Source of the DNA: an uncultured bacterium | GTDB lineage: Bacteria; Auribacterota; JACPWU01 | DNA length: 32,000 nucleotides | Direction of reading: 5' to 3' | Assembly (NCBI GenBank): GCA_964640155.1 | Contig: CAZXEQ010000003.1 | Coordinates: 164,189-196,188, forward strand | Part shown: one piece after another, positions 3,272 to 30,124 of the stretch | Numbering within the stretch: position 1 is the stretch's first letter | How the letters are laid out: every line of letters begins with the position of its first letter | The notes under the pieces: generated by a model | What the model was told of the DNA's origin: nothing | Databases searched by the model: none | Seen by the model: only the letters and a program-made list of their open reading frames with translations | Position numbers and translations under genes: made by a program

Positions 3272-3283
3272 TAAATTTTATTT

Positions 3284-4918: not shown

Positions 4919-5554
4919 TTAATCATATTTAAAAAAATAATAGAGAAATTTCATATATTCATTAAATACGGTAATGAGTCCATCCTCGCAAAGCCACCAA
5001 TCATTTGCATCAAAAAATTGATGGGGTGCTTCAATGGCAGAGATATGCACATTCATTCCTTTAAAAACTTTTTTAAAAATCCATTTAGCCCTTTTTGAAT
5101 GAAACCCGGAAGTTACAATAATGATGGATTTAAAAGATTCCTTTTTCTCTATATAACGGCGTAAAGCTTTGGCTTCATCGTAAGTTCCTTCCACAGGTTC
5201 TTCAATAGCAATAATAGCACTGTCAGGAATATGCCTGTATTTAGTTAATACGAGGGCATTGAGTTTTGCGCTTGTAATTCTATAGCCTAAAAGAGGGAAT
5301 AGGTGATTATCGTAGTCACTACCAAATGTCACAATTTTTGGAGCGAATCCTTGCTGGTAAAGGTTAGCTGCTTTTTTGTTGCGCATAGGAATACCCCCTG
5401 AAAGGATTACAATGACATCTGAAGGTTCAGGAGCATCACTAGAAACAAGTACGCGTGCTACTAATGGTAACCATGCCCAGCGAGTGCTAAAAGGGATAGC
5501 AATCATTAAACTTAAAATAATAATAACAATAAAAAATCGATAGGGATGTTTCAT
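4919..5554 (-). CDS. DUF218 (YdcF/SanA/ElyC-family) membrane-anchored protein
   Basis: It has an N-terminal hydrophobic helix (FFIVIIILSLMIAIPF). The core motifs are VILSGG ... IIIVTSGFHSKRA, as in the YdcF/SanA family. Its ATG overlaps the stop of the upstream gene as ATGA (5551-5554). Confidence 0.75.
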   Translation of the reverse strand: MKHPYRFFIVIIILSLMIAIPFSTRWAWLPLVARVLVSSDAPEPSDVIVILSGGIPMRNKKAANLYQQGFAPKIVTFGSDYDNHLFPLLGYRITSAKLNALVLTKYRHIPDSAIIAIEEPVEGTYDEAKALRRYIEKKESFKSIIIVTSGFHSKRAKWIFKKVFKGMNVHISAIEAPHQFFDANDWWLCEDGLITVFNEYMKFLYYFFKYD

Positions 5555-7227: not shown

Positions 7228-7342
7228 AGTTTGTTTATGGTTTTAAATGTTGATAAAGTGATTTGCGTAGTGTTTTGAACACTGTATACGATTTTTATTC
7301 GTTACGAATAGGAATGAGTGTAACTTACGTTTAAATATTAAG

Positions 7343-8446
7343 TCAAGAACTTGAGGTTTTAAAAGGACTTGTCATTTTTTTTAGAATGAAACGAACTGAT
7401 CGTACGATATACTTTGGTGTAATAGACTTTAGGAGCAATCGTATTTTGTCTTTATGTCCCTCCATAGTTGAAAAACGAAAAGTAATATCAAAAATTCTAG
7501 AAAGGGCATGTTTTTTCTTAAAGAGTCGCTCACATGTTTTATAGACTAACTTTTTAACGTTAGGATCTTTTTGTATAAATTTGATTGCTTCGTTTGGGAT
7601 AGGGATTTTGAAGAGGTTTTCTGACAGGCAAAGAGCTAATAAAACCATTCTTTTTTGAGTTTTGTTTTCAGCTCTTTTCAATATCCATGACCAATTCATT
7701 TCAGGGTATTTCTCAATCATTTCTGTAATATCAGATATCCAATTAAGACGGTTCCAAGCATGTTGAGCTCCGTGTGCGCAGAGGACTAAAAATAAATGCT
7801 CTGGAGAAAAGGTGTGTAAAAAATGATTTCCTAAAACTATTGATTGAGCTCTTTCTTCTAAAGGTTCGTTTATTGTATGTGTTTCCCAGTGAAGATCTAT
7901 ATAGACCCCATTTTTTAAAAAAGTTGGATCACAATGATATCGAAAAATATAATCCCATTGGTCGTCTGTGAATCCCATGCTTATGTGGTAGCCTTGAGCC
8001 TGTAAAAGATTTTTAGCTTTAGGGGCATCGTTCTTGTGGATAATAATATCTAAGTCATTAAATTGTCGCAGATGGACCTGTCCATAAAGCATTAGAGCTA
8101 GAATAGGGCCTTTATAAGAAATAACAAAAATATTTTGCTTTGCAAATAAATCCAAAATTTTTATTAATTCCGCGGTCATTTGCAGTGTACGTCGTGAAGA
8201 GTTCTCAAAGTATTCACGAAGTTTGGCCAAAACGAGATCTGGAACATTCTCGCGAAAGAAAGAGTTTAAATGTGTGTAAACAAGGGGTGTGAGTTTATGA
8301 TAAAAGACAATTTTAACAAAGTAGTCCCAATCTATATTTCCCTTTAGTAGATCTTTGATGTGTTCTGTTTTATCGGGACTGAGGGGAGATCGCGCACAGG
8401 CAAACAGAAGTTTTTGTTCAGGACTAAAGAAATTGTGTTGTATCAT
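7343..8446 (-). CDS. Nucleotidyltransferase family protein (NTP_transf_5/PF14907-like), stand-alone paralog
   Basis: It aligns along its whole length with the N-terminal part of 5551..7227 (FSPEQKLLFACAR, YKGPILALMLY...FNDLDIII, HGAQHAWNRLNWISD). The ATG at 8446 (MIQHNFF) matches the paralog N-terminus. The track start at 8458 is a TTG. Confidence 0.8.
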   Translation of the reverse strand: MIQHNFFSPEQKLLFACARSPLSPDKTEHIKDLLKGNIDWDYFVKIVFYHKLTPLVYTHLNSFFRENVPDLVLAKLREYFENSSRRTLQMTAELIKILDLFAKQNIFVISYKGPILALMLYGQVHLRQFNDLDIIIHKNDAPKAKNLLQAQGYHISMGFTDDQWDYIFRYHCDPTFLKNGVYIDLHWETHTINEPLEERAQSIVLGNHFLHTFSPEHLFLVLCAHGAQHAWNRLNWISDITEMIEKYPEMNWSWILKRAENKTQKRMVLLALCLSENLFKIPIPNEAIKFIQKDPNVKKLVYKTCERLFKKKHALSRIFDITFRFSTMEGHKDKIRLLLKSITPKYIVRSVRFILKKMTSPFKTSSS

Positions 8447-8452
8447 AAAAAA

Positions 8453-10363
8453 ATGCAAACACCTTGTATTGAAATAAAAGCCTCTCTATTTGGAGGAATC
8501 ATTTTTCCCTCTGGCTCTTTACATGGTTCAAATGAGACAGTGAAAAAGGCATTACAGTTTGATGACAAGCCTCAACCAGTATTAACTTATGAAAGTGCCA
8601 CATGTCTGGTGTCGCAGTGGATATACACCAATCCAATGTTTCACAATGTAAAAGATTCTTCAACTTTTTTCTTTAAACAAGATCGCTATGTTATTGTGAC
8701 ATGGTCTCGACTAGACAATCGTTTTGAGATTGCATTAAAGCTTCATATTCATCCTCGGGAACTTTCGGATTTAACGGATGGGGATCTTATCCTTAAAACC
8801 TATCTCCGTTTTGGCTCTGAGTGTGCAAAACACTTGGTCGGTGATTTTGCTTTCGTTATCTACGACACAGTAGAGTGTACAACTTATTGTGCGAGAGATC
8901 CTATAGGAATACGTCCATTTTTTTATGCTCAAGCAGGAGATATTTTAATTTTTGCTACACATATGTCGTTCTTTCATAAGATACCATTTTTTAAATCTGA
9001 AATAGATGAACTGTGGCTTTCCAGATTTATCTTAAATACTTATTTTAATTCTAGAGAGACAACGTGCTGTACCAATATTAAGAAATTGTTGCCAGGGCAT
9101 GTTTTAACATATCGTCATCAACAAATTCAAATAACGAGGTATCATGATTTTGATCCCGATAAGACTCTTTCCTTAAAAGATAAGCGCGATTATATAGAAA
9201 TTTACCAAGATACTTTAAAGCAAGCAGTGAGTTGCCGGCTTTCTCAAAATAAAATAATAGGGGCAGAACTTAGTGGAGGATTAGACTCTACATCTGTTAT
9301 TGGCGTTGCTTTAGAATGTGATCCTGATCTGTATCAGACATTGCATACCTTTGGCCACGATAAACTGGATTTCGATGGTATTTATATGGATGAAGCACTT
9401 TCTTATTGGAAGCTTCAAGGCCCCCATCACCGTTTTCAGAATGACGAAATGATGGAACATTATCGTAATATTCCTGAAACCATTGCGTTACTTGGACAGC
9501 CAGAGCAAGGAGGTATGGCCTCTTATCATATTCCATTTTATAGATTGGCTGAGAAAAAAGGCATTCAGGTATTGCTTTCGGGTTTTGGAGGAGATGAGGT
9601 CGTAACTCATCAGACAGGATTTGTAATTTTAGAGTTATTATCCAAAGGCCAATTCAAGAAAGCTTGGCAGGCTTTACCGGGACCATTTATAGAAAAAATA
9701 CTTAGATTTTTTAAATATTGCGCTAGTTTAAGTTGTTATGAATTCATCCATCAACGCTATTATCAGTCTTTATTAAAAGAGGTTAAAGATAGGCTTGCTT
9801 ATATGCCTTTGGCAACACCGTGGAAAGAAAAATTCCTTTTAATAAAACCGCACTTTAATGAGGCCAAAATAAGAAGCGGCATATGTGTAAATCAAGAATG
9901 CTTACAAAAACTCTTTCAGCCTGCATTGACAGCTCGGTTAGAAGCTTCTTCGGTTTTAGCTGCAGCTTACAAAATAGAATATGTCTGGCCTCTTCTAGAT
10001 GTGAGACTCATTGAATTATTTTTATCGATTCCTTCAGAGTACAAGTGGTTTCAAGGAATAGCGCGTTATTTGCACCGAGAAGCTATGATAGGTAAAATTC
10101 CTGAAAGAATTCGACAGTCCCTGACAAAGTATATGGGGAAAATGAAATATTCGTCTTCTATATACTCTATAGCCGAGGTCAATGATTTTTTTTGCAGAAC
10201 GTTTCCCCCTTCTTTTAATAAAATGATAGATGTTAAACGACTGAATAAATTAGATTGTCTTAATCGGACTCAGATTAAAACTAAAGAGAGTAAACCTTTT
10301 GTATATGAGAGCATTCTTCATCGTTGTATGCAATTAGATCAGTGGTTGAATGATTGCGTTTAG
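8453..10363 (+). CDS. Lasso peptide cyclase C1 (asparagine synthetase B-like isopeptide-bond-forming enzyme)
   Basis: It has an Asn-synthase-type adenylation signature, GAELSGGLDSTSV (SGGLDS PP-loop), and LLSGFGGDEV. An N-terminal GATase-like domain lacks Cys2, as in McjC-type enzymes. It is a close paralog of 17939..19846. The first ATG in the ORF is at 8453. The track start at 8360 is a GTG inside the divergent neighbour. Confidence 0.85.
   Translation: MQTPCIEIKASLFGGIIFPSGSLHGSNETVKKALQFDDKPQPVLTYESATCLVSQWIYTNPMFHNVKDSSTFFFKQDRYVIVTWSRLDNRFEIALKLHIHPRELSDLTDGDLILKTYLRFGSECAKHLVGDFAFVIYDTVECTTYCARDPIGIRPFFYAQAGDILIFATHMSFFHKIPFFKSEIDELWLSRFILNTYFNSRETTCCTNIKKLLPGHVLTYRHQQIQITRYHDFDPDKTLSLKDKRDYIEIYQDTLKQAVSCRLSQNKIIGAELSGGLDSTSVIGVALECDPDLYQTLHTFGHDKLDFDGIYMDEALSYWKLQGPHHRFQNDEMMEHYRNIPETIALLGQPEQGGMASYHIPFYRLAEKKGIQVLLSGFGGDEVVTHQTGFVILELLSKGQFKKAWQALPGPFIEKILRFFKYCASLSCYEFIHQRYYQSLLKEVKDRLAYMPLATPWKEKFLLIKPHFNEAKIRSGICVNQECLQKLFQPALTARLEASSVLAAAYKIEYVWPLLDVRLIELFLSIPSEYKWFQGIARYLHREAMIGKIPERIRQSLTKYMGKMKYSSSIYSIAEVNDFFCRTFPPSFNKMIDVKRLNKLDCLNRTQIKTKESKPFVYESILHRCMQLDQWLNDCV
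8810..8869. repeat. 60-nt perfect inverted repeat, copy 1 (inside cyclase C1)
   Basis: tttggctctgagtgtgcaaaacacttggtcggtgattttgctttcgttatctacgacaca is the exact reverse complement of 19454..19513. It encodes FGSECAKHLVGDFAFVIYDT in both paralogs. Confidence 0.9.
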
Positions 10364-10378
10364 ATTTGGTGTAAATAA

Positions 10379-11008
10379 TCAATTGCTAAAAGTATAATGA
10401 AAGAGCGATATGTCTTTTTGATATAGATCTGCAATTCTGTTTCGTAGCTCATCGTCATAATAATTGAAATAGGGGAGGTGTTCTGACTTGTTGATAATAT
10501 TGAGTGTTTCGGTAGGGATGCCTATTTTTTTACAGGCAAGGTCGTAAGATTCTTGGAGATTTTCCTGGCGACAAATATAATCAATCATAAGTGCATCCGA
10601 AGTATCAGTGATAAATTGGTATTGTGGAGCAAATAAGATTCTCTTTTGATGGACTGAATCTTTTGCAATTTTTTTTAGAGTGAGTAAAGTATTCTTTTTT
10701 AAAATGTCGGTGTTTCTATACATAAAAAAGACATAAGAGATGAATCTGTCCCATGGATTACGTACACAAGCAAATTTAAAGTAAGAATTCCAAATATTTT
10801 CTCCCACGGCTTTTTTTATTTCATTTGCTGAAATATGACCATGGTTAATGCTGGCAATTTCTTTATAAGGTGCTTTTTTTTTAACGAAGAGTCCTACCTG
10901 TTCTATATCATCTTTTGCTAGGTGCTTTCTTAAAGCAAAACGAATGGCATGAGTACCTGTTTTAGGAATAGCAATAAAAATAAATTTGTACTTGTGTGAG
11001 ATGATCAT
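10379..11008 (-). CDS. Sulfotransferase (Sulfotransfer_2/carbohydrate-sulfotransferase-like family)
   Basis: It has a 5'-PSB-type loop, IPKTGTHAIRF, and a VRNPWDRFISY motif, both characteristic of PAPS-dependent sulfotransferases of the PF03567 type. Its start has an ATGA overlap with the upstream hydroxylase gene. Confidence 0.7.
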   Translation of the reverse strand: MIISHKYKFIFIAIPKTGTHAIRFALRKHLAKDDIEQVGLFVKKKAPYKEIASINHGHISANEIKKAVGENIWNSYFKFACVRNPWDRFISYVFFMYRNTDILKKNTLLTLKKIAKDSVHQKRILFAPQYQFITDTSDALMIDYICRQENLQESYDLACKKIGIPTETLNIINKSEHLPYFNYYDDELRNRIADLYQKDISLFHYTFSN

Positions 11009-11583
11009 TGATTGGAAGGTATCTCTAAATATTCAAAGATAAGATGGATTCTGTCACAATTTCCATCATTCTTCACAGCATGCAGTGTTGCGTTATTAAC
11101 TTCATAGGCATATCCCTCTTTTAGATTATATTTTTTAGAGGATTGAAAGAACCAGGCATCAGGGTTAGTTTGAATAGGGATATGTATTTTATGAGGCCTG
11201 TTCTGTAAAATATTTCCATCAATATGTGGTGGGATTTTTGCGCCGGGAGGTAATTTCGCGAGCATAACCCTAGGATAAAAACCATTTGTATAACCATAAT
11301 GTTGAGTCACCTCATTCATTACGGGTAATAGTTTGTCTTTCCATTTATCCCATACAGGTAGATCAAAATAGGTGATAGGCACCTGTTTTTTATTAGAAAA
11401 TTTAAAAATGATATGCTGAGTTTGTTTTAAAACCCCATCTTTATTGTAATTCGCTTTTTCTGAATCCGTGTCGTTCCAATCGTTTTTCGGGATGGTTAGG
11501 ATATGATCTTTAATAGAGGAAATATTGATTTTACAGATTTCGAGTATTTCTTTTGTTTTTTTTGTGTTTATTTCTAGTTTCAT
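11005..11583 (-). CDS. Aspartyl/asparaginyl beta-hydroxylase-like Fe(II)/2-oxoglutarate oxygenase
   Basis: It has the pattern IPPHIDGN...RPHKIHIPIQT...NNATLHAVKNDGNCDRIHLIFEY, which is typical of the Asp_Arg_Hydrox cupin family (HxD...H facial triad). Confidence 0.7.
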   Translation of the reverse strand: MKLEINTKKTKEILEICKINISSIKDHILTIPKNDWNDTDSEKANYNKDGVLKQTQHIIFKFSNKKQVPITYFDLPVWDKWKDKLLPVMNEVTQHYGYTNGFYPRVMLAKLPPGAKIPPHIDGNILQNRPHKIHIPIQTNPDAWFFQSSKKYNLKEGYAYEVNNATLHAVKNDGNCDRIHLIFEYLEIPSNQ

Positions 11584-11680
11584 AAAGTTTATTGATTTTT
11601 TTATTGTATTTAAATAAAGTATGATAATATTATATGAAATATGGTATTGTTTATTTTTAATTTAAGAAAGGCCTAAAATA

Positions 11681-11836
11681 ATGAGCTTAAATGAATCTCA
11701 TAAAAATGATCCCGGGCTTATAGTAAAGAAAGAACTTTGGCAATCTCCAAAGCTTCTTTATCTTAATTTGGATGGAACTGAGTCAGGTCCTACTTATCAC
11801 ATGGGCTACGAAGATGCAATGTATGTCTCTCACTAA
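11681..11836 (+). CDS. Candidate lasso peptide precursor A1 (51 aa, not in the ORF track): MSLNESHKNDPGLIVKKELWQSPKLLYLNLDGTESGPTYHMGYEDAMYVSH
   Basis: This is a hand translation. The ATG at 11681 is the first ATG after an in-frame TAA (11663), with GAAAGG 9 nt upstream. The leader carries an aromatic-xx-P-x-L motif (WQSPKL) and a Thr near the cleavage site, as in lasso leaders. The proposed core is GPTYHMGYEDAMYVSH (Gly1, Glu9 ring acceptor). The leader block is homologous to the second small ORF at 17635..17790. Confidence 0.75.
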   Translation: MSLNESHKNDPGLIVKKELWQSPKLLYLNLDGTESGPTYHMGYEDAMYVSH

Positions 11837-11993
11837 TCATGTTTTTTAAAATGATATTTAATTTTTTTGAAGCACGGCCATCCTGTTTTTTTTCTATTGT
11901 GTACTCACAAAAATAATTCTTTTTCTTCTTCTTTTATAAAGCAGCGAATCTCATTTTAAGATTAGATTAAATTACAAGAAAAACTGAAATTTC

Positions 11994-12974
11994 TTAGATA
12001 AATTCAATTTCCTTTAGCAAGGTGGCAAGATGTTCTTGCGAGAAGTGTTGAATGCCTCTAGGAATATTTGCTTCATAGATAGGGACTCGTTTTACGATGG
12101 ATATAATCATTTTAAGCTGATGCCTTACAAGCTCTCTGGCTTGCCAGGGAATTCTGGGATAATGGTTAAGATGAATAACAGCCTCACTGGCTTTTAGCCG
12201 TCTTACAGTCAAATTTTTAAATTTGATAGATAACCGAGGAATGACAATAGTTTTGAGAGTAGGGTATTCGTTTAAACTGCTAGAAACACGTACGATAAAT
12301 CGTTTATCTGCAGATATTCCGATGAGAGTTTCCGGAAAAAGTTTTGCAACGTTTTCAGCATTGGGGCGTAATCGAATTTCTGATGTTCCTGGAAAGCAAC
12401 TTACCGTGTTTTTGTAAAATTTAAGACGAAGTGTATCATCCGTAATTAGCCTAGCTCCATTTGAACATAGAAGGGCGGCTAAAGTAGATTTTCCCATTCC
12501 TGAATTTCCTACAAAAGCAAGAGCTGTATTTTTAATTTCTACTGCACTTGCATGCAATACAGTATGTCCTTGTAGGGTAAGAATGAAAGTAATAACATTT
12601 CCTGAGATGAGCAGGGGAATAATGTCAGGGTCCGCATGGGGGGTAAGGTGAACGTGTATATGCCGACATTCGAAATCCATTCTGAATTCACAAAAATCAT
12701 GATAACGCAAAATATAACCCGTAGCGGTTTGTGTATATATATAACCTTTTCCATTTTTATAAGAAAATTTTGCAAGAATCTGGCCTTCCTGTAGTGTGCT
12801 TGAAAAGTTACAGTTCTCACCCCAATAGATATTTAGATCTTCAAGCGAATTATCATTATAAATAGGTGTTCCAAGAGGAATTTCAGATCGAATGGATAAA
12901 CCATAGAGCTTATAGGTGGGATAAGATTTTAGTTTTTTATTGGCTTTTAAAGGATCTGCTTGGATTTGAGGCAT
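11994..12974 (-). CDS. HPr kinase/phosphorylase C-terminal-domain-like kinase K1 (lasso precursor kinase family)
   Basis: It has the P-loop FVGNSGMGKSTLAALL followed by LITDDT, as in HPrK/P and paeninodin-type lasso kinases. The ATG at 12974 is preceded by GAGAGGAAA. From there the N-terminus (...YKLYGLSIRSEIPL) aligns with paralogs K2 and K3. The longer ORF extending to 13037 is possible. Confidence 0.8.
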   Translation of the reverse strand: MPQIQADPLKANKKLKSYPTYKLYGLSIRSEIPLGTPIYNDNSLEDLNIYWGENCNFSSTLQEGQILAKFSYKNGKGYIYTQTATGYILRYHDFCEFRMDFECRHIHVHLTPHADPDIIPLLISGNVITFILTLQGHTVLHASAVEIKNTALAFVGNSGMGKSTLAALLCSNGARLITDDTLRLKFYKNTVSCFPGTSEIRLRPNAENVAKLFPETLIGISADKRFIVRVSSSLNEYPTLKTIVIPRLSIKFKNLTVRRLKASEAVIHLNHYPRIPWQARELVRHQLKMIISIVKRVPIYEANIPRGIQHFSQEHLATLLKEIEFI

Positions 12975-13229
12975 TAATTTCCTCTCTTGAAGATTAAGTG
13001 GTGTGTAGAATTTATCTGTCTTTTTTAAAGAAGTCAATACACAATGGGTTTGTCAAATAAGATTAAAGTTATTATACAAAAGAACGCTTAAGATGAAGCG
13101 AGGCGGCATTTAGTTTATGCTTCTTACCGAGAGATTGCATATATACAGAAAACTTATTTCTTGTTGAATACAAGTAGATTCATATTTAAAATTGTGGCTT
13201 AGTAAAATAGGGGGTTGTGGGTGAAATAC

Positions 13230-14150
13230 ATGAACTATAAAGCTTTTGGATTAATCCTATCGTCTTCTTTGTCTTTACCTTTTATTGAAGTATCTTCAGA
13301 AACTGTACCCGACTGTCTTATTTCAATAGGGGAAGTTCCTTCTCCTATTGACATCCCGTCATTAAAGTCTCTCGGTTTGTGTGTATATGTCAATTCAGAA
13401 AATGTAGTTGTTGATGTAGAAGGTGTTGCTCGTTTTCATTGCCAATTGAATAAGATTATTGTACAGACTTTGGGTGCGTGTGAGGCAGGCGTGATTGCTT
13501 TTCTAGTATATTCAGCCTTACCCTATTGGCTATTGTTGAGAGGACAGATGGTGCTTAGAGGTTGTGCGATTACTTGGGACGGAGTTCACAGCCAATTATG
13601 GTTATCTCATTCAGGGGTAGGGAGCTCGACTTTTGCAGCTTATGCGGTACAACGAGGAGCAAAACTTTTAAGTGATCATCTTTGTGTGATAGGTTTTAAC
13701 GAGAAAAAAATTAGTACAGTACAAAGTGGGATTTCCCAAATAAAATTATGGCAAGATGCCTTAAATCAGTTGCAGATTAAGAGTGCATCTTTAGCTCCTA
13801 TTCGGTCTGGACTGATGCAGTTTTTATGGGATGTAACAGAAAATTTTTATCATCAATCCTTGCCCATTTCTCAAGTTATAAGCTTGAGTGTTTCCAATGA
13901 TGTGAAGGATAATGGATTGAAAAAGTTTTTAGGTTTAGAGAAAATAAAATATTTGAGCGCTTACAATTATTGTCATACATTTGGAGATGTTTTGTTGAAG
14001 AAGACTTTTCAGGCCCCTCTCTTGGTAGCCTTAGCTAATCAAGTAGCAGTTTATTCGTTTACTCGCTTGAGTGGACAGAAAATAGGTGATGGAGTGAATA
14101 ACACGATGGATGAGATTTTTCCTTTCTTTAAGGAGTCTGTCCTTGCTTAA
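13230..14150 (+). CDS. HPr-kinase-like paralog K2 with a degenerate P-loop (putative pseudokinase)
   Basis: The N-terminus MNYKAFGLILSS aligns with K3 (MNAYRAFGLNILS). The P-loop position reads LSHSGVGSSTF (GKS changed to GSS). The following ADD/TDD position reads SDH. Alternative starts are GTG 13221 (GGGGG 6 nt upstream) and TTG 13215. Confidence 0.7.
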   Translation: MNYKAFGLILSSSLSLPFIEVSSETVPDCLISIGEVPSPIDIPSLKSLGLCVYVNSENVVVDVEGVARFHCQLNKIIVQTLGACEAGVIAFLVYSALPYWLLLRGQMVLRGCAITWDGVHSQLWLSHSGVGSSTFAAYAVQRGAKLLSDHLCVIGFNEKKISTVQSGISQIKLWQDALNQLQIKSASLAPIRSGLMQFLWDVTENFYHQSLPISQVISLSVSNDVKDNGLKKFLGLEKIKYLSAYNYCHTFGDVLLKKTFQAPLLVALANQVAVYSFTRLSGQKIGDGVNNTMDEIFPFFKESVLA

Positions 14151-15924
14151 AGAACACCCTTTTGTTCTATACCTTCAATCACTGATTCGTTTTTCTCCTG
14201 CACGGTTTATTCTTGGATGTCTGTTGAATATTACCAATACTTTTTTATCAGGGTTAGGCATGCTGATGCTTATTCCTCTATTACATTATTCAGGATGGCT
14301 ATCTCAGACAACTTTTCATGAAAATCAGTTTATGCAGGTCTTGACTTGGTTGCCGCATTTTCAGGGACAATGGCCTCTTTTTATAACTTTATTGTTGTTT
14401 GTGGTCTTAATGGGAATAACTGCTTTGGTGCAATATAATACGAGTTTTATGCAGAATAGATTGATGCAAGAATATTTATTTGTTCTACGTGAGAAATTTA
14501 ATAGAAGCATTGCACATAGTCGATGGGATTTTTTGTTAAAGCAGAAACTTAAGCATGTCGAACATATGCTAACGGTGGGGTTACAACAAGTTAGTACATT
14601 GACTTATTTCTCCTTAAATTTAATCAGTGATGCCATTGTTGTATCCATCTATTTTTTATTTTCATGGTGGGTTGACTTTCGATTGACTCTTGTTGCAACG
14701 GGATGTGCTTTCAGTCTATTGTTTCTTCTTAGGAAGCACAAAGCGATATTAACAGGACAACAAACTTTTTTTCTGAATCGTAAAATGCAAGAATCTTTCG
14801 GTCTTTTTTTAGATGGGGTAAAACTAGCCAAAAGTTATAATCAGGTTTCAAATTATCTTAAAAATTATACAGTGTCGGACTTGGAGTTTAAGCAGTCTCA
14901 ATTAGATTTTTTCCGTAATCAACAGACGATTCAGCTGCTCTTTAAGTTAATCAGTGCAGGACTTTTTGCTTTTATTTTTTATGTTGCAGTTCAGGTTTTT
15001 CATATCTCAATGATTTCTATGCTTGCCTTGCTAATGATTTACGCTAGATTGTTGCCTCGTATTTCGGGTCTACAGCAGAATTATCTTCGTACTATGAATG
15101 TGGCCCCAGTTTTTCATGAATTATCTTCAATGAAAAGGGGATTTGATGAAGCGCAGGAGAAACAAGAGTCTATAGACCAGCTTTTGACATTTGAACAATC
15201 AATCACTTTTAATCATATCAGTTTTTATTATGATGATTTTGCTGCTTTAAAATCGGTGAATTGTCAGTTTTTTAAAAATACAACGACAGCCATTGTAGGC
15301 AGATCAGGTGCAGGTAAATCAACTTTAGCAGATTTGCTGTTGGGTTTATTGATTCCTAGCAATGGAGTTATTATGTTGGATGGGAAGACTCTTGCAGAGT
15401 CTCAATTAAAAGAATGGCGTAAATACATTAGTTACGTTCCTCAAGAAACCTATTTTTTTAATGATACTTTGCGGGCAAATTTGCTTTGGGCTGTTCCGGA
15501 TGCCAGTAATCAAGAGTTATGGAAGTCCTTAGAGCAGGCTGCTGCGGCTGAGTTTGTAGCGAAATTACCTCAGGGTTTGGATACTTTTATTGGAGATCGA
15601 GGCATTCATTTGTCGGGTGGAGAAAGGCAGCGTATTGCTATTGCTCGGGCGTTACTGAGAGAGCCTAAAGTTTTGCTGCTAGACGAAGCAACCAGTTCTC
15701 TGGATACTTATAATGAAGAATTGATTTTTAAAACTTTACAATCTTTGAAGGGGACGATGACAATAATTATTATTGCTCATCGTTTAAGTACGATTCGAAT
15801 TGCGGATCATGTTTTAGTTTTAGATCAAGGGCATCTAATTGAACATGGGACTTCGAGTAAACTTTTTGAAAATCAACAATCATATTTTAATCTTTTATTT
15901 GCAAGTCAGATTATTAATTCTTAA
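14110..15924 (+). CDS. ABC transporter, fused permease/ATP-binding protein (McjD-like lasso peptide exporter)
   Basis: The N-terminal half has about 6 hydrophobic segments. Walker A is GRSGAGKST, the signature is LSGGERQR, Walker B is LLLDEATS and the H-loop is IIAHRLST. An alternative TTG start at 14143 lies behind AAGGAG. Confidence 0.9.
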   Translation: MRFFLSLRSLSLLKEHPFVLYLQSLIRFSPARFILGCLLNITNTFLSGLGMLMLIPLLHYSGWLSQTTFHENQFMQVLTWLPHFQGQWPLFITLLLFVVLMGITALVQYNTSFMQNRLMQEYLFVLREKFNRSIAHSRWDFLLKQKLKHVEHMLTVGLQQVSTLTYFSLNLISDAIVVSIYFLFSWWVDFRLTLVATGCAFSLLFLLRKHKAILTGQQTFFLNRKMQESFGLFLDGVKLAKSYNQVSNYLKNYTVSDLEFKQSQLDFFRNQQTIQLLFKLISAGLFAFIFYVAVQVFHISMISMLALLMIYARLLPRISGLQQNYLRTMNVAPVFHELSSMKRGFDEAQEKQESIDQLLTFEQSITFNHISFYYDDFAALKSVNCQFFKNTTTAIVGRSGAGKSTLADLLLGLLIPSNGVIMLDGKTLAESQLKEWRKYISYVPQETYFFNDTLRANLLWAVPDASNQELWKSLEQAAAAEFVAKLPQGLDTFIGDRGIHLSGGERQRIAIARALLREPKVLLLDEATSSLDTYNEELIFKTLQSLKGTMTIIIIAHRLSTIRIADHVLVLDQGHLIEHGTSSKLFENQQSYFNLLFASQIINS

Positions 15925-15936
15925 TAAGGATCGATC

Positions 15937-16821
15937 ATGAAACAAGATCTTCCTCTTATTTGGTTGGCCTCCTATCCTAAGTCTGGGAATACATGGTTTC
16001 GCGTTTTTTTAGCTAATTTGCTTCAAGAGGAAAAAGATAAAGTAATACCTGTTTCTATTAATCAATTAATGGTGGGGCAGATTGCAAGCAGTCGAGCGGC
16101 TTTTGATCAAGTTTATGGAATTGATTCAAGCCTTTTAACCTTAGAAGAAATTGATGCGAAACGTCCAAAGCTGTATAAAAAATGGGTAAATTTAGATAAT
16201 GATAAAACTCGCTTTCATAAAGTTCATGATGCGTATACTTTCTTGCCAAATGGCGACCCCCTCTTAGGAAATCCAAGTCAACAAAAAGCTTTGTATTTTA
16301 TTCGCAATCCTTTAGATGTAGCAGTATCATTTGCTTATCATAGTGGTTATACGGATATGAATAAAATGATTGAGAAGATGAATGAGGTCTCCTATGCTTT
16401 TTGTCACCGTAAAATCTGTTTTTATTCTCAACTACGTCAACAATTATTAAGTTGGCATGAGCATGTTTTGAGTTGGATTGATCAGTGTAAAATGCCTGTT
16501 CATGTGATGAGATATGAAGATATGGTGAATGATCCTATCTCAATTTTTTATAAAGCTATACAATTTATAGGTTTATCTCAGAGTGTTTTGGATGTCGAAA
16601 AAGCATTAGAATTAAGCTCTTTTTCTAATTTACAGAGTCAAGAAGCTCAAGAAGGTTTTAAGGAAAAGTCTCCGAAAACAAAAGCATTTTTTCGTAAAGG
16701 TAAGATTGGTTCATACCGTGAGTCATTAACACAAGAGCAGATTGAATCTTTAATTCAGGCTCATGCCAAGGTTATGCACCGTTTTGGCTATCTTGACAAC
16801 ACTGGAGCACCTGTGTTTTAA
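15937..16821 (+). CDS. Sulfotransferase (Sulfotransfer_1, cytosolic PAPS-dependent type)
   Basis: It has the 5'-PSB motif SYPKSGNTWFRVFL and the 3'-PB motif FFRKGKIGSYRE. AAGGA lies 8 nt upstream of the ATG. Confidence 0.85.
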   Translation: MKQDLPLIWLASYPKSGNTWFRVFLANLLQEEKDKVIPVSINQLMVGQIASSRAAFDQVYGIDSSLLTLEEIDAKRPKLYKKWVNLDNDKTRFHKVHDAYTFLPNGDPLLGNPSQQKALYFIRNPLDVAVSFAYHSGYTDMNKMIEKMNEVSYAFCHRKICFYSQLRQQLLSWHEHVLSWIDQCKMPVHVMRYEDMVNDPISIFYKAIQFIGLSQSVLDVEKALELSSFSNLQSQEAQEGFKEKSPKTKAFFRKGKIGSYRESLTQEQIESLIQAHAKVMHRFGYLDNTGAPVF

Positions 16822-16849
16822 TCTCAATCATTAGCAGGGGGGCTTAGTT

Positions 16850-17152
16850 ATGTCTGATTATTTATTTCAGTCCGATGACATTCTGGTTAGAGAAAAAAAT
16901 TTGTTTTCTGCAAATATAGATGATGATGTTGTAATGCTCGACGAATCTTCTGGGAATTATTTTGGTCTAAATCCTGTTGCTGGTAAAATTTGGCAGCTTC
17001 TAGAAAAGCCAATTCGTTTAAGAGATCTTATTAATAGCTTAACCACCCACTATGAAGTTGACAGGCTGCAATGCGAACAAGAAACGGCCAGTTTTCTAAA
17101 TTCATTGAATGAACGTAAACTATTACACATCACTCATGCTGAAAAAGCTTAA
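16850..17152 (+). CDS. Lasso peptide biosynthesis B1 protein (PqqD-family RiPP recognition element)
   Basis: It is a ~100 aa PqqD-like protein (VVMLDESSGNYFGLNPVAGKIWQLLEKPIRLRDLINSL). It sits directly upstream of, and overlaps, the B2 protease gene. Confidence 0.85.
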   Translation: MSDYLFQSDDILVREKNLFSANIDDDVVMLDESSGNYFGLNPVAGKIWQLLEKPIRLRDLINSLTTHYEVDRLQCEQETASFLNSLNERKLLHITHAEKA

Positions 17153-17585
17153 GAGTTATTGGCGTTTACCTTTGGAATTACGCAGGGCATCCAGAGAAGC
17201 TTTCTTATATTTAACTTTCTCAAAAATTTTAATCAAGAGTATTCCCATCCGTTTTTCTTTGAAGTATTTGGGTGTTAAGAATATAGATCTTTCCAGAAGT
17301 GATGTGAGCTGCGATCCGAGTGTTCTTTTCCTGATCAGACAGAGCATTTATTTGGTGAGTAAAAATTTACCTTGGAGGAGTAAATGCTTAGATCAGGCTA
17401 TGACTGCACAATGGATGCTTTCCAGAAGAAATTTACCTACGACACTATACTTGGGAATGAGAAAATCCGATAACGCTAAAAAATCTTATGATGCGCATGC
17501 TTGGGTATGTTGCGGTAATATGCCTGTTATAGGAGTGCAGCCTCAGGTGGGATATGTTGTAGTAGGGAGATATTCTTTCCTGTAA
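17136..17585 (+). CDS. Lasso peptide biosynthesis B2 protein (transglutaminase-like Cys leader peptidase)
   Basis: It has the pattern WRSKCLDQAMTAQWML...YDAHAWVCCG (catalytic Cys and His of the Transglut_core3/McjB family). The probable start is MLKKLKSYW at 17136, which overlaps B1 by 17 nt. The track start is 17109. Confidence 0.85.
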   Translation: MLKKLKSYWRLPLELRRASREAFLYLTFSKILIKSIPIRFSLKYLGVKNIDLSRSDVSCDPSVLFLIRQSIYLVSKNLPWRSKCLDQAMTAQWMLSRRNLPTTLYLGMRKSDNAKKSYDAHAWVCCGNMPVIGVQPQVGYVVVGRYSFL

Positions 17586-17634
17586 TTCAGAGAAAGTTTT
17601 TAAAAAATAAAAGATGAAAATGTTTAATATGTCT

Positions 17635-17790
17635 TCATGAAAAAACACCGCAAGCAGCTTCAGGGACTACCGCGCATCCTCCTTCAGTTTGAACAGATAA
17701 ATCAATTTGAATAAGAGTTGGTGTTTGCCAGAGTTCTTTTTTTTGTTTAGTTTTGGAAACGGTTTTATGAGTGGATTGTTGAGTTCGCAT
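17635..17790 (-). CDS. Candidate lasso peptide precursor A2 (51 aa, not in the ORF track): MRTQQSTHKTVSKTKQKKELWQTPTLIQIDLSVQTEGGCAVVPEAACGVFS
   Basis: This is a hand translation of the minus strand. GAGGAA lies 6 nt upstream of the ATG at 17790, and the TGA stop is at 17637-17635. The leader motif is KKELWQTPTL with Thr at -2. The core is GGCAVVPEAACGVFS (Gly1, Glu8, two Cys, C-terminal Ser). It lies immediately downstream of cyclase C2 on the same strand. Confidence 0.8.
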   Translation of the reverse strand: MRTQQSTHKTVSKTKQKKELWQTPTLIQIDLSVQTEGGCAVVPEAACGVFS

Positions 17791-17837
17791 TTAACATTCC
17801 TCATGAGATGCAATTATTAAAAATACACAGACTATTT

Positions 17838-17855
17838 AAAAAAGAGCTCTTTTTT
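17838..17855. repeat. Perfect 18-nt palindrome AAAAAAGAGCTCTTTTTT in the C2-A2 spacer
   Basis: Read directly from the sequence. It is self-complementary across its full length and centred on GAGCTC. Confidence 0.8.
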
Positions 17856-17861
17856 GAGGGT

Positions 17862-17881
17862 TCATACCCTTAAAGGTATGA
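17862..17881 (-). other. Stem-loop (7-bp stem TCATACC/GGTATGA, 6-nt loop) between cyclase C2 and precursor A2
   Basis: Read directly: tcatacc-cttaaa-ggtatga. Its function (processing site, attenuator or none) is not established. Confidence 0.5.
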
Positions 17882-17938
17882 CAAATTTTGTCTTTTACCA
17901 GTTCAATCATATAGCGTTACATCTCATAAATCAATCAG

Positions 17939-19846
17939 TTATGTAAGATTTTTGCTATTTTTCATCATAGATAAAAGTAGTTTGATTTGTATGGAGCGAT
18001 TGATAAAAGTTCTATAAACGAAAGACTTTTCACCTTTTAGACAAGTGTCATTTTTGTGTTCATTATGTAATTTTTGCAATTTTTTTATATTTACAATTTT
18101 TTGAGTAAGAGGGTGTTGGGGTTCAGAAAAAAGTCGATTTGCTTGTGTGCTGCTGCTAATGGACGGGAAAGGTTTAATATTTCCCATTTCTTTTGTAGGT
18201 TGTGCTCGGATAGATTCTGGAATTTTCTCTTTCATTGCTTCCCTGTGTAGATAGCGAGTTATTCCTTGATGCCATTTATATTCTGCTGGAACAGACAGAA
18301 ATAATTCGATTAGACGGATATCTAAAAGGGGCCAAGCGTATTCGATGTTGTAAGCGGCTGCCAGAATGGAACATTCTTCTAATCGGGCAATTGCAATAGG
18401 TCCAAAAGTTTTTTCTAAACATTGTTCATTTACATGCGTATAACCTTCTCGTTGAGCAAGAGCAAAATATTTTTTTCTGAGCTGTAAATTTTGTTTCCAA
18501 TGTAAGAGGAGAGGAGCATGTACAAGACGTTCTTTTAATGCTTTTAAATAAATCTTGTGATTACAGCGCTTATGGGCAAGTTGGTAATAACAGAGGAGAG
18601 CTAATTGTTTTAATAAGTGTAGTGATCGCTTGATCGGTTTTCCATGGAGAGCTCGCCATGCTTTCTTAAACTGCCATTTAGATAAAAGTTCAATAATAAC
18701 AATTTGAGTTCTTTGAGTAACAAACTCATCTCCACCAAACCCAGAAAGTAGTATTTGAACACCTTCTTTTTCTGCCTGTTTATAAAAAGGAATATGAAAA
18801 GAGCCCATTCCTAATTCTTCAGGGTATCCAAGAAGAGAGACGGTTTCAGGCATATTCTCATAATGTTGTCCAAAGAGAACATCGTTATAGAAACGGTGGT
18901 GAGGGCCTTGTAAATTGAAATAAGTAAGCGCTTCATCAATGCAAGGTCCGTCTAAATCCATTTTATCATGTGCAAATGTATGTAATGTTTGACGAAGTTC
19001 AGGATTACATTCAAGAGCTGTGCCAATGATAGAAGTGGAGTCTAATCCACCACTGAATTCGGCTCCAATTGGTTTATTTTCAGGAATACGGCACCGAACA
19101 GCTTCTTTAAGTGCTTTCTGATAAACTTGAATATACTCATGCGTGTCTTTTAGATGAAGTATTTTATAAGGGTCAAATGCATGATAACGCGTAATTTGAA
19201 TTTTATGATTACGATAGATGAGAAAGTGTCCAGGTGCTAATTTTTGTATGTTGTTATAAAAAGTTTCTGTAAGGCTTAATGGAATATGAAGTAAATATTG
19301 TACGAGTCGAGATTCGTCTATCTGAGCTTTAAAAAAAGGTAATTTATGAAAAAAGGAAATATTTGAAGCAAAAATAAGACTCTTTTCTTGCTGGGCATAA
19401 AAAAGAGGTTTTACACCGATAGGATCTCGCGCACAGTATAAAGTTTTATCTAGTGTGTCGTAGATAACGAAAGCAAAATCACCGACCAAGTGTTTTGCAC
19501 ACTCAGAGCCAAAGCGTAAATAACTTTCAAGAATGATATCCACATCGCTTAGTGATGAGAGTTTATAGGGGGCGATACCAAGTTTTAGAGCTATCTCAGG
19601 CCGGTTGTCTAAGCGAGACCAAGCAAGAACAACATAACGGTTTTTTCTTAAGAAAAAAGTTGTTGGATTTTTTGTGTCTTGAGCAGATTGATTGCCTTGA
19701 GTCCATTGGGCTATGGCATATAGGTTATCTTGATGAGATAGGGTTCTTTGTGGTTGATTAGGGAATTGTAGGGCATGCTCAACGGCATTTGGATCTATAT
19801 CTAATTGGGATTCAGAAACAATTCCAGCAAAGAGAGATGTTTTCAT
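17939..19846 (-). CDS. Lasso peptide cyclase C2 (asparagine synthetase B-like)
   Basis: It is a paralog of C1 with the same motifs (GAEFSGGLDSTSI, LLSGFGGDEF, AAAYNIEYAWPLLDIRLIELFLS). The start is MKTSLFAGIV. Confidence 0.9.
   Translation of the reverse strand: MKTSLFAGIVSESQLDIDPNAVEHALQFPNQPQRTLSHQDNLYAIAQWTQGNQSAQDTKNPTTFFLRKNRYVVLAWSRLDNRPEIALKLGIAPYKLSSLSDVDIILESYLRFGSECAKHLVGDFAFVIYDTLDKTLYCARDPIGVKPLFYAQQEKSLIFASNISFFHKLPFFKAQIDESRLVQYLLHIPLSLTETFYNNIQKLAPGHFLIYRNHKIQITRYHAFDPYKILHLKDTHEYIQVYQKALKEAVRCRIPENKPIGAEFSGGLDSTSIIGTALECNPELRQTLHTFAHDKMDLDGPCIDEALTYFNLQGPHHRFYNDVLFGQHYENMPETVSLLGYPEELGMGSFHIPFYKQAEKEGVQILLSGFGGDEFVTQRTQIVIIELLSKWQFKKAWRALHGKPIKRSLHLLKQLALLCYYQLAHKRCNHKIYLKALKERLVHAPLLLHWKQNLQLRKKYFALAQREGYTHVNEQCLEKTFGPIAIARLEECSILAAAYNIEYAWPLLDIRLIELFLSVPAEYKWHQGITRYLHREAMKEKIPESIRAQPTKEMGNIKPFPSISSSTQANRLFSEPQHPLTQKIVNIKKLQKLHNEHKNDTCLKGEKSFVYRTFINRSIQIKLLLSMMKNSKNLT
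19454..19513. repeat. 60-nt perfect inverted repeat, copy 2 (inside cyclase C2)
   Basis: It is the exact reverse complement of 8810..8869. Flanking codons of the two paralogs differ at many synonymous sites. Confidence 0.9.
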
Positions 19847-19886
19847 TTTATTTAGTCAAAGTATTGCGTATAAGAAAGTTCTAACT

Positions 19887-21693: not shown

Positions 21694-21809
21694 AGATGAG
21701 ATACATATACGCACAGGAAAAGCTAGGTCCTTTCTTCAGAGAATGTGACTGAAAGGGCGGAGCTCTATGGAGAAGTCAATATGTTGGATCCTATAAAAAG
21801 AAGAAAGAG

Positions 21810-24072: not shown

Positions 24073-24073
24073 T

Positions 24074-29446: not shown

Positions 29447-29447
29447 T

Positions 29448-30107: not shown

Positions 30108-30124
30108 TCTTAGAATATAGAAAT

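What the first reader, a model, noticed from the sequence alone, without database searches (positions are those of the whole stretch)
8453..19846. Two cyclases and two precursors appear to share one leader-recognition/protease pair and one exporter
Both precursors are exactly 51 aa. They share the leader block KKELWQ(S/T)PxL at the same distance (20 residues) from the proposed Gly1. Their cores are unrelated: a 16-mer with a Glu9 acceptor and a 15-mer with a Glu8 acceptor. Only one B1 (RRE) and one B2 (protease) are encoded, but there are two diverged cyclases. C2 is directly adjacent to A2, and C1 lies in the A1-side sub-cluster. This fits a model with common leader recognition and cleavage plus ring-size-specific cyclases (9-mer vs 8-mer rings), which is an uncommon architecture.
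Basis: inference. Interest (0 to 1): 0.7.

Follow-up and report, generated by a model that had tools for sequence, protein, structure and literature searches.

The report
Two-cyclase lasso peptide gene cluster
This is a gene cluster for two different knotted "lasso" peptides, each apparently with its own ring-closing enzyme, sharing one leader-binding protein, one leader-cutting protease and one exporter; I found the same layout in about one in eight related clusters in other bacteria, so it is an untested variant, not a one-off.

Summary
Window 5551-20744 is a paeninodin-type lasso peptide cluster. It has two 51-aa precursors (A1, A2), two cyclases (C1, C2; 55% identical), one B1 leader-recognition protein, one B2 protease and one ABC exporter. 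An HMM scan of all six frames finds no second B1 or B2 in the 32 kb.

The cluster is larger than reported. It also holds three HPr-kinase-like genes (one lacks the Walker A lysine), two NTP transferases, two sulfotransferases and a beta-hydroxylase.

C1 and C2 are each other's closest relatives; the next best hit among 5.8 billion proteins is 35-37% identical. This points to a lineage-specific duplication.

The shared leader block is the WxxPxL motif already known for this family.

The layout is a minority but not rare. 11 of 81 related loci, plus one contig fetched separately, have two cyclases, and at least 10 of these 12 have a single B1 and B2. In Bacillaceae, cyclase phylogeny follows the adjacent core peptide, which supports dedicated cyclases with shared B1/B2.

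Ring sizes are ambiguous: A1 has Thr at -3, not -2, and lacks the family's C-terminal Ser. Nothing has been tested experimentally.

Verdict: real, interpretation partly supported, a new variant of a known kind, moderate interest.

The parts
5551..7227 (-). NT1-MT: NTP_transf_5 (PsmN-like nucleotidyltransferase) fused to a SAM methyltransferase domain
   Evidence: Pfam PF14907 8.7e-58 and Methyltransf_31/25; 40% identical to NT2
7343..8446 (-). NT2: second NTP_transf_5 nucleotidyltransferase. The ORF runs to 8458, but the likely ATG is at 8446.
   Evidence: PF14907 3.4e-59. The N-terminus aligns with NT1 from MIQHNFFSPEQKLL.
8453..10363 (+). C1: lasso macrolactam cyclase, paralog 1
   Evidence: Asn_synthase plus GATase_7; NF033535 1e-81, below its cut-off; 55% identical to C2; SGGLDS motif intact and no private loss at conserved columns
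10379..11008 (-). ST1: Sulfotransfer_2 family tailoring enzyme
   Evidence: PF03567 1.7e-14
11005..11583 (-). HYD: Asp/Asn beta-hydroxylase-like tailoring enzyme
   Evidence: PF05118 3.1e-10; homologues lie next to cyclases in L001, L005 and L046
11681..11836 (+). A1: 51-aa precursor. Leader motif KKELWQSPKL is at 11726-11755. Proposed core GPTYHMGYEDAMYVSH is at 11786-11833 (Gly1-Glu9).
   Evidence: Thr is at -3 and the C-terminus is Ser-His (direct reading).
11994..13037 (-). K1: HPr-kinase-like peptide kinase with an intact Walker A (GNSGMGKST)
   Evidence: Hpr_kinase_C 3e-07 and TIGR04352; family HMM 1e-66; alignment
13230..14150 (+). K2: HPr-kinase-like paralog with a degenerate P-loop (SHSGVGSST; DH in place of DD). 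Probably a catalytically inactive pseudokinase. First gene of the K2-D-ST2-B1-B2 unit.
   Evidence: family HMM 2.4e-70. It is the only one of 70 homologues without the Walker A Lys. Start at ATG 13230 by alignment with K3.
14110..15924 (+). D: ABC exporter (transmembrane domain plus nucleotide-binding domain). The only one in the cluster.
   Evidence: ABC_tran 5.3e-33 and MsbA/HepA-like models; no paralog in the window
15937..16821 (+). ST2: Sulfotransfer_1 family tailoring enzyme
   Evidence: PF00685 1.2e-30; K-ST2 pairs recur in L001, L008, L012, L021, L046, L064 and L081
16850..17152 (+). B1: PqqD-type RiPP recognition element (leader-binding protein). Single copy.
   Evidence: PqqD 3.9e-17; NF033536 8.6e-21; best solved-structure hits are lasso RREs 9x90_B at 1.4e-15 and TbiB1 at 3.7e-14; only one HMM hit in the window
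17109..17585 (+). B2: transglutaminase-like leader peptidase. Single copy.
   Evidence: Transglut_core3 9.2e-18; NF033537 at 73 bits, above its cut-off of 33; only one HMM hit in the window; Cys (SKCLDQ) and His (DAHAW) motifs present (direct reading)
17635..17790 (-). A2: 51-aa precursor. Leader motif KKELWQTPTL is at 17713-17742. Proposed core GGCAVVPEAACGVFS is at 17638-17682 (Gly1-Glu8, Thr at -2, Cys3 and Cys11, C-terminal Ser).
17939..19846 (-). C2: lasso macrolactam cyclase, paralog 2, in the co-directional unit K3-C2-A2
   Evidence: Asn_synthase plus GATase_7; NF033535 7.7e-85; sister to C1
19887..20744 (-). K3: HPr-kinase-like peptide kinase with an intact Walker A (GNRGSGKST), 40 nt upstream of C2
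   Evidence: family HMM 2.1e-87; alignments

Best explanation
Window 5551-20744 is one paeninodin-type lasso peptide biosynthetic gene cluster. It has a split B protein and HPr-kinase-like, NTP-transferase and sulfotransferase tailoring genes. It contains two cyclase/precursor modules and only one set of shared genes.

Proposed mechanism (every step is inferred from homology):
1. A1 and A2 are translated as 51-aa precursors.
2. K1 and K3 phosphorylate a Ser at or near the C-terminus of the linear precursors. K2 is probably inactive.
3. The single B1 binds the WxxPxL motif present in both leaders and presents each to the single B2 protease, which removes the leader.
4. C2, in the K3-C2-A2 operon, closes the Gly1-Glu8 ring of A2. 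C1 closes the ring of A1, most simply Gly1-Glu9.
5. The NTP transferases, sulfotransferases, hydroxylase and methyltransferase domain decorate the products.
6. The single ABC transporter D exports both peptides.

The two modules arose by duplication of a cyclase and a precursor, and probably a kinase and an NTP transferase, within this lineage. The cores then diverged. A second cyclase is retained because lasso cyclases read the core, whereas B1/B2 read the leader.
For: - Gene content and copy numbers.
- C1 and C2 are 55% identical. Every other protein among 5.8 billion is at most 37% identical, and they are sisters in the tree.
- Both cyclases keep SGGxDS and carry the same 7 substitutions at 40 columns that are at least 90% conserved, with no private losses. 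So both have stayed under the same constraint since duplication.
- The leaders share a 10-residue block with synonymous differences (AAG/AAA for Lys, CTT/CTC for Leu).
- The WxxP motif is the main determinant of RRE binding in this family (PMC13381572).
- B1 is closest to solved lasso RREs.
- Comparative support: 11 of 81 loci plus L087 have two cyclases, and at least 10 of these 12 have one B1 and one B2. Each cyclase has its own adjacent precursor.
- In Bacillaceae, cyclase clades follow core class, not locus.
- A locus with three near-identical cores has one cyclase (L055).
- For pseudomycoidin, the core plus PsmC alone suffice for cyclisation, so the cyclase reads the core (PMC6993621).
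- K1 and K3 have intact P-loops, matching two modules.
Against: - There are no expression or product data.
- A1 departs from two features that are near-universal in the precursors collected here: Thr at -2 and a C-terminal Ser.
- A1 is not adjacent to C1.
- The C1 start codon lies 6 nt from the divergent NT2 start codon, leaving no intergenic promoter space.
- PsmB1/B2 failed to cut a foreign precursor with 14 of 19 identical leader residues (PMC6993621). Sharing one B1/B2 between leaders that are only about 45% identical over their last 20 residues is therefore not guaranteed.
- The rest of the genome could hold another B1/B2.
Confidence: 0.6

Rival explanations
1. Only the K3-C2-A2 module, together with B1/B2/D, makes a lasso peptide. 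The A1/C1 side is a decaying duplicate or one repurposed for something else, and A1 is not matured into a lasso.
For: - A1 has Thr at -3 instead of -2 and ends in Ser-His instead of Ser. Nearly all collected family precursors have Thr-2 and a C-terminal Ser.
- A1 is a stand-alone gene, not next to C1.
- C1 has no intergenic promoter region.
- K2 shows that paralog decay does occur in this cluster.
Against: - C1 is full length with no frameshift, has an intact SGGxDS and has no private loss at conserved columns.
- A1 keeps an RBS, the leader motif with synonymous changes, an acceptor Glu at the same residue (44) and a tail of the same length (7 aa) as A2.
- Other family precursors, such as ANTNPGNFLDD in L037 and L049, also break the Thr-2 / ring 7-9 rule.
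Confidence: 0.17
2. The two cyclases are not core-specific. They are redundant, each can cyclise both cores, or they work together as a hetero-oligomer, so the duplication affects dosage or assembly and not specificity.
For: - C1 and C2 share all family-conserved residues and the same derived substitutions.
- Some lasso cyclases tolerate many core substitutions (general knowledge; not tested here).
Against: - The cores are unrelated, and the required ring size differs in every cleavage register (direct reading).
- In other two-cyclase loci, the cyclase clade tracks the adjacent core class.
- Loci with several similar cores keep one cyclase (L055).
- 45% sequence divergence has been maintained between the two paralogs.
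Confidence: 0.12
3. Each module has its own B1/B2, and the second pair is encoded outside the 32-kb window.
For: - Only 32 kb of a 357-kb contig is visible.
- Two of the surveyed two-cyclase loci (L040, L080) carry two B1-like genes.
Against: - At least ten other two-cyclase loci have a single B1 and B2 within about 20 kb.
- The leaders share the recognition block.
- The cluster is compact, and the single B1-B2 pair sits between the two modules.
Confidence: 0.08

Closest known systems
Paeninodin (pade) and pseudomycoidin (psm) lasso peptide clusters of Paenibacillus/Bacillus (C-A-K-B1-B2-(N)-D)
   Same: - Split B1/B2, an Asn-synthetase-like cyclase and an ABC exporter.
- An HPr-kinase-like gene and an NTP_transf_5 gene; some clusters also have a putative sulfotransferase.
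- A WxxP leader motif.
- A precursor ending in Ser (true for A2).
Sources: PMC8498205, PMC6993621, PMC13381572.
   Different: - The window has two cyclases and two unrelated cores, three kinase-like genes (one with a dead P-loop), two NTP transferases (one fused to a methyltransferase), two sulfotransferases of different Pfam families and a beta-hydroxylase.
- The genes are spread over six transcription units on both strands.
- The cyclases are only 23-31% identical to the Bacillota ones.
- The host is probably not Bacillota: the best named relative of the flanking pyruvate carboxylase is a MAG labelled Chlamydiae (79% identical).
Uncharacterised two-cyclase paeninodin-like loci in public genomes, e.g. 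Paenibacillus mendelii (L023: C-A-K-B1-B2-N-C'-A'-K'-D), Bacillus sp. MRMR6, Ornithinibacillus californiensis, Halobacillus sp., Bacillus niameyensis (C-A-C'-A'-K-B1-B2-(N)-D) and contig L087
   Same: Two cyclases, each with its own adjacent precursor, and one B1, one B2 and one exporter.
   Different: - In most of these loci the two cyclases come from different clades, suggesting module acquisition. In the window, and in L023, they are close paralogs.
- I found no description of these loci in the open-access literature searched.
Multi-precursor lasso clusters with a single B and C (caulosegnins, caulonodins; recalled from memory, not checked here) and L055 in this survey
   Same: Several precursors share one leader-processing machinery.
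   Different: In those clusters the cores are similar and one cyclase serves all (L055: three near-identical cores and one C). In the window the cores are unrelated and there are two cyclases.
Two-component lanthipeptide systems such as haloduracin and lacticin 3147, with two LanM synthetases, two precursors and one LanT protease/exporter (recalled from memory; a functional analogy only)
   Same: The logic is the same: one dedicated core-modifying enzyme per precursor, with shared leader removal and export.
   Different: These are an unrelated enzyme family with unrelated chemistry. There is no evidence that the two lasso peptides here act together.
Co-localised LPP and paeninodin-like clusters (PMC13381572)
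   Same: Two RiPP precursors with similar [Y/W]xxP leaders are encoded in one locus beside polysaccharide genes.
   Different: There, two RREs and two peptidases have evolved to discriminate between the leaders. Here a single RRE and peptidase must accept both.

Membership tests
Lasso peptide biosynthetic gene cluster | Asn-synthetase-like macrolactam cyclase (C) | tested here: met
   C1 and C2 have Asn_synthase plus GATase_7 above the Pfam cut-offs. Their best NCBIfam model is the lasso cyclase NF033535 (275 and 286 bits, below its cut-off of 525). The SGGxDS motif is present.
Lasso peptide biosynthetic gene cluster | PqqD-type RRE (B1, or the N-terminal domain of B) | tested here: met
   PqqD scores 62.8 bits against a cut-off of 23.4. 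The best solved-structure hits are lasso RREs 9x90_B and TbiB1.
Lasso peptide biosynthetic gene cluster | Transglutaminase-like Cys protease (B2) | tested here: met
   NF033537 scores 73.2 bits against a cut-off of 33. Transglut_core3 scores 64.7 bits. The Cys and His motifs are readable in the sequence.
Lasso peptide biosynthetic gene cluster | Precursor with a leader carrying [Y/W]xxPxL and a core with a small residue at position 1 and Asp/Glu at position 7-9 | tested here: met
   A2 has WQTPTL, Thr at -2 and Gly1-Glu8. A1 has WQSPKL and Gly1-Glu9, but Thr is at -3.
Lasso peptide biosynthetic gene cluster | The product is a threaded, dehydrated (-18 Da) macrolactam | not testable with these tools
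   This needs mass spectrometry or NMR of the products.
Paeninodin-like (kinase-associated) lasso subfamily | HPr-kinase-like gene in the cluster | tested here: met
   K1, K2 and K3 hit the family HMM at 1e-66 to 2e-87, and K1 has weak Hpr_kinase_C / TIGR04352 hits. K2 lacks the Walker A Lys.
Paeninodin-like (kinase-associated) lasso subfamily | WxxP rather than YxxP leader motif (PMC13381572) | tested here: met
   Both A1 and A2 have W.
Paeninodin-like (kinase-associated) lasso subfamily | Precursor ends in Ser, the residue the kinase phosphorylates (PMC8498205) | tested here: inconclusive
   A2 ends in Ser51, so the feature is met. A1 ends in Ser50-His51, so it is not met.
Paeninodin-like (kinase-associated) lasso subfamily | NTP_transf_5 (PsmN-like) gene in the cluster; an optional feature | tested here: met
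   There are two copies, with PF14907 at 1e-58.
'Dedicated cyclase, shared B1/B2' two-module architecture (this report's working class) | Two full-length cyclases, two precursors, and one B1, one B2 and one D in the locus | tested here: met
   (window); the rest of the genome was not visible.
'Dedicated cyclase, shared B1/B2' two-module architecture (this report's working class) | Each cyclase processes only its own core, and B1/B2 process both leaders | not testable with these tools
   There is only indirect comparative support: cyclase and core are inherited together in other loci.

The most novel reading that the evidence does not exclude
The single B2 cuts both precursors in the same Thr(-2) register, after the conserved Thr-Glu. 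A1 would then start at Ser35, and C1 would close a 10-residue Ser1-Glu10 ring. That ring size is outside the 7-9 range known for lasso peptides. On this reading the second cyclase is kept because it evolved a new ring size. Precursors in L037 and L049 (TM|ANTNPGNFLDD) pose the same problem: they have no acidic residue at positions 7-9 in the Thr(-2) register.
Probability: 0.08. Interest if true: 0.8.

Novelty: new variant of a known kind. Interest (0 to 1): 0.42.

Why it matters
How a lasso cyclase chooses its ring size and its core, and how it works with the B1/B2 leader-processing pair, is still poorly understood.

Here two cyclases are 55% identical, share all their lineage-specific substitutions, sit in one cluster, presumably work with the same B1/B2, and must close different rings on unrelated cores. 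That makes them a natural chimera and swap system for mapping specificity determinants.

The survey suggests a rule that could help genome mining: similar cores share one cyclase, dissimilar cores each get their own, and leader recognition, cleavage and export are shared.

If the host is an environmental member of the Chlamydiota, as one flanking gene suggests, the cluster would also extend tailored lasso peptides to that group.

Tried and rejected
- **Source record.** Exact-sequence look-ups of C2 and C1 found nothing, so I could not read the rest of the 357-kb contig.
- **Literature.** Searches for two cyclases, a second cyclase, cyclase duplication and related phrases found no description of the architecture. 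The paeninodin JBC paper and the RODEO paper are not held in the library, so prior mention there cannot be excluded.
- **Promoter and terminator scan.** It gave no more sites than shuffled sequence, so I did not use it to define operons.
- **Third precursor or hidden B1/B2.** Considered and rejected: motif scans and HMM scans of all frames find none.
- **Two independent clusters fused.** Considered and rejected for the window: C1 and C2 are sister paralogs, and there is only one B1/B2/D.
- **Synteny.** The closest relative's pyruvate carboxylase locus has no lasso genes within 10 kb.
- **Structure prediction.** Not run. Single-chain models would not discriminate cyclase specificity.

Full report
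**1. What is in the sequence**

The stretch 5551-20744 carries fifteen genes that together make a lasso peptide cluster (ORFs; domains).

| Strand | Genes, in order along the window |
|---|---|
| Plus | C1 (8453-10363); A1 (11681-11836); K2-D-ST2-B1-B2 (13230-17585, overlapping or closely spaced) |
| Minus | NT2 then NT1-MT (8446 down to 5551); HYD then ST1 (11583 down to 10379); K1 (13037 down to 11994); K3-C2-A2 (20744 down to 17635) |

- C1 and C2 carry Asn_synthase and GATase_7 domains. Their best NCBIfam model is the lasso cyclase NF033535.
- B1 is a PqqD domain. Its closest solved structures are lasso leader-recognition proteins: 9x90_B at 1.4e-15 and TbiB1 at 3.7e-14.
- B2 passes the curated lasso B2 model NF033537 (73 bits, cut-off 33).
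- D is a full-length ABC exporter.
- The tailoring genes are three HPr-kinase-like genes, two NTP_transf_5 genes (one fused to a SAM methyltransferase), a Sulfotransfer_1 gene, a Sulfotransfer_2 gene and an Asp/Asn beta-hydroxylase-like gene. This is the set reviewed for the paeninodin/pseudomycoidin family (PMC8498205, PMC6993621), with additions.

**2.

- Both precursors are 51 aa.
- KKELWQ(S/T)PxL lies 20 residues before the proposed Gly1 in both. The cores are a 16-mer with Glu9 and a 15-mer with Glu8.
- The peptides detect each other by tblastn at E about 3e-4 within the window.
- They are the only intergenic small ORFs with a [WYF]xxPx[LIVMFA] motif, apart from an ORF antisense to A2.
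- Both have a ribosome-binding site. The conserved leader codons differ synonymously (AAG/AAA, CTT/CTC), which fits selection on the peptide.
- tblastn and HMMs built from 61 B1, 47 B2, 70 K and 89 C homologues, run on every stop-to-stop frame, give exactly 2 C, 1 B1, 1 B2 and 3 K in the 32 kb.

**3. What the shared leader block is**

PMC13381572 reports that W in the WxxP motif is nearly invariant in paeninodin-like precursors. The same paper shows it is the primary determinant of binding to the discrete RRE PbaB1.

The shared block is therefore the family's known recognition motif, here extended to ten residues because the two genes are recent paralogs. This makes a shared B1 plausible but does not prove it. 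PsmB1/B2 did not cut a foreign precursor with 14 of 19 identical leader residues (PMC6993621).

**4. Origin of the two cyclases**

- C1 and C2 are 55% identical over their whole length.
- In a search of 5.8 billion proteins, the next best hit is 35-37% identical. The two are sisters in a neighbour-joining tree of 89 cyclases.
- At 40 columns conserved in at least 90% of the other 87 cyclases, C1 and C2 deviate at the same seven positions with the same residues, and neither has a private loss.

The duplication is therefore specific to this lineage, and both copies have stayed under the same constraint. NT1/NT2 (40% identical) and K2/K3 (28% identical) are also paralog pairs.

**5. Is the architecture unusual?**

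It is a minority, but recurrent.

- Of 81 loci (80 fetched with the cyclase profile from one genome per species, plus L081, the contig that carries the best database homologue), 11 have two strong cyclase hits within about 10 kb. Nine of those have exactly one B1 and one B2: L006, L008, L023, L037, L041, L049, L066, L067 and L075. L040 and L080 have two B1-like genes.
- A further contig from the closest clade, L087, has two cyclases (26% identical), two precursors (one YxxP leader, one WxxP leader), one PqqD and one Transglut_core3.
- Examples: Paenibacillus mendelii has C-A-K-B1-B2-N-C'-A'-K'-D. Five Bacillaceae have C-A-C'-A'-K-B1-B2-(N)-D.
- The sample is biased, because the search patterns came from this window's cyclases and many contigs are truncated. 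The fraction is only indicative.
- I found no open-access paper that describes this layout. Two key papers were not available.

**6. Comparative support for 'dedicated cyclase, shared B1/B2'**

- In the five Bacillaceae loci, the cyclase directly upstream of an NGPGNANADCFD...SNASCL..S precursor forms one clade.
- The other cyclase of each locus groups with cyclases of single-cyclase loci whose precursors have similar cores. For example, L041_7642 groups with L015 (GPGIRDVD...). L067_7647 groups with L047, L032 and L034 (AGPGxKxPDAxQPDPD). L037_6418 and L049_6445 group with L011 and L044.
- Cyclase and core are thus inherited together as a module, while K, B1, B2 and D are shared.
- Conversely, L055 has three near-identical cores and a single cyclase.
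- PMC6993621 shows that core plus PsmC is sufficient for cyclisation, so the cyclase recognises the core itself.

It is not a test on this window.

**7. Open points on A1 and on ring sizes**

- With Gly36 as residue 1, A1 has Thr at -3 (..GTES|G), whereas A2 has the canonical Thr at -2 (..QTE|GG).
- There are three self-consistent readings:
  - both cut after TEx, giving rings of 9 and 7;
  - both cut after TE (Thr at -2), giving rings of 10 and 8.
- In every reading the two cores need different rings, which fits two cyclases.
- In both precursors the acceptor Glu is residue 44 and the tail is 7 residues long.
- A2 ends in Ser, the residue phosphorylated by the family's kinases (PMC8498205). 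It also has Cys3 and Cys11, so a ring-to-tail disulfide is possible.
- A1 ends in Ser-His, and A1 is not adjacent to C1.
- These points keep alive the rival that the A1/C1 side is non-productive.

**8. Context**

- The flanking pyruvate carboxylase is 79% identical to one from a MAG labelled Chlamydiae/Chlamydiota. The next named hits are at 59% or below.
- That MAG shares the neighbouring PIF1-WYL helicase but has no lasso genes within 10 kb.
- The assignment rests on one gene and on a MAG label.
- Downstream of K3 lie a NusG/UpxY-like gene and nucleotide-sugar genes. This echoes the report that some paeninodin-like clusters are embedded in polysaccharide loci (PMC13381572), and L081 and L087 show the same neighbourhood.

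**9. Verdict**

The anatomy and the comparative data favour two dedicated cyclases with shared leader recognition, cleavage and export.
- The ring-size assignment is uncertain, the function of A1 is not assured, the layout is less rare than claimed, and nothing has been tested functionally.
- It is a new variant of a known kind (paeninodin-type lasso clusters) and of moderate interest. Its main value is as a natural system for mapping cyclase specificity.

Noticed in passing
window 13230-14150 (+): K2 is the only one of 70 HPr-kinase-like homologues compared that lacks the Walker A lysine (SHSGVGSST against G-x-GKS/T-T) and has DH in place of the conserved DD. It is probably a pseudokinase retained as the first gene of the K2-D-ST2-B1-B2 unit.
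   Followed up: partly
window 8444-8455: The likely start codons of the divergent genes NT2 (ATG at 8446, minus strand) and C1 (ATG at 8453, plus strand) are only 6 nt apart, separated by an A/T run. Neither gene has an intergenic promoter region, and C1 has no obvious Shine-Dalgarno sequence.
   Followed up: no
window 5551-7227 (-) and 4919-5554 (-): NT1 is a fusion of an NTP_transf_5 domain and a SAM methyltransferase domain. The downstream DUF218 gene overlaps its stop codon by 4 nt, so it may be co-translated and part of the cluster.
   Followed up: no
window 17638-17682 (-): The A2 core GGCAVVPEAACGVFS has Cys3 in the predicted ring and Cys11 in the tail. The product could carry a ring-to-tail disulfide, as in the rare class III lasso peptides (direct reading; class definition from PMC9266682).
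   Followed up: no
window 21121-31105 (+): Directly beside the cluster lie a NusG/UpxY-like antiterminator gene and a run of nucleotide-sugar and aminotransferase genes. Related lasso loci L081 and L087 also sit next to sugar and PAPS-synthesis genes. These could supply substrates for the NTP transferases and sulfotransferases.
   Followed up: partly
L037 8361-8504, L049 8388-8531, L044 11957-12091: Bacillaceae precursors such as ..SMTM|ANTNPGNFLDD have no Asp/Glu at positions 7-9 in the canonical Thr(-2) register; the first acidic residue is at position 10. So either these are cleaved with Thr at -3, or the ring has 10 members.
   Followed up: no
L087 5337-11890: This Logan contig has two cyclases that are only 26% identical, one PqqD and one Transglut_core3. 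Its two precursors carry different leader types, YKKPEV and WNQPVV. A single RRE would have to accept both Y- and W-type leaders, which PMC13381572 found to be discriminating in other systems.
   Followed up: partly
L085 10001-11794: A Coxiellaceae MAG carries an orphan lasso-type cyclase (33% identical to C2) next to an IS240-family transposase and a large ankyrin-repeat protein. No B1, B2 or kinase is called within 10 kb.
   Followed up: no
L055 11762-12258: Paenibacillus nuruki has three tandem, near-identical precursors (AGIG[YW][KR]QIDWVSEQDADLYNPS) behind a single cyclase. This is a useful contrast to the two-cyclase loci.
   Followed up: partly
window C1 and C2, whole length: Both cyclases carry the same seven substitutions at positions conserved in at least 90% of 87 other family cyclases, for example P to T, D to W, W to F, W to Y and E to D. 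The median for other members is one. This marks a strongly divergent cyclase lineage.
   Followed up: partly
window 68-4867 and L082: The neighbouring pair of pyruvate carboxylase and PIF1-WYL helicase is conserved in the MAG GCA_016178055.1, labelled 'Chlamydiae bacterium', whose pyruvate carboxylase is 79% identical. That MAG lacks the lasso genes within 10 kb of this locus.
   Followed up: partly
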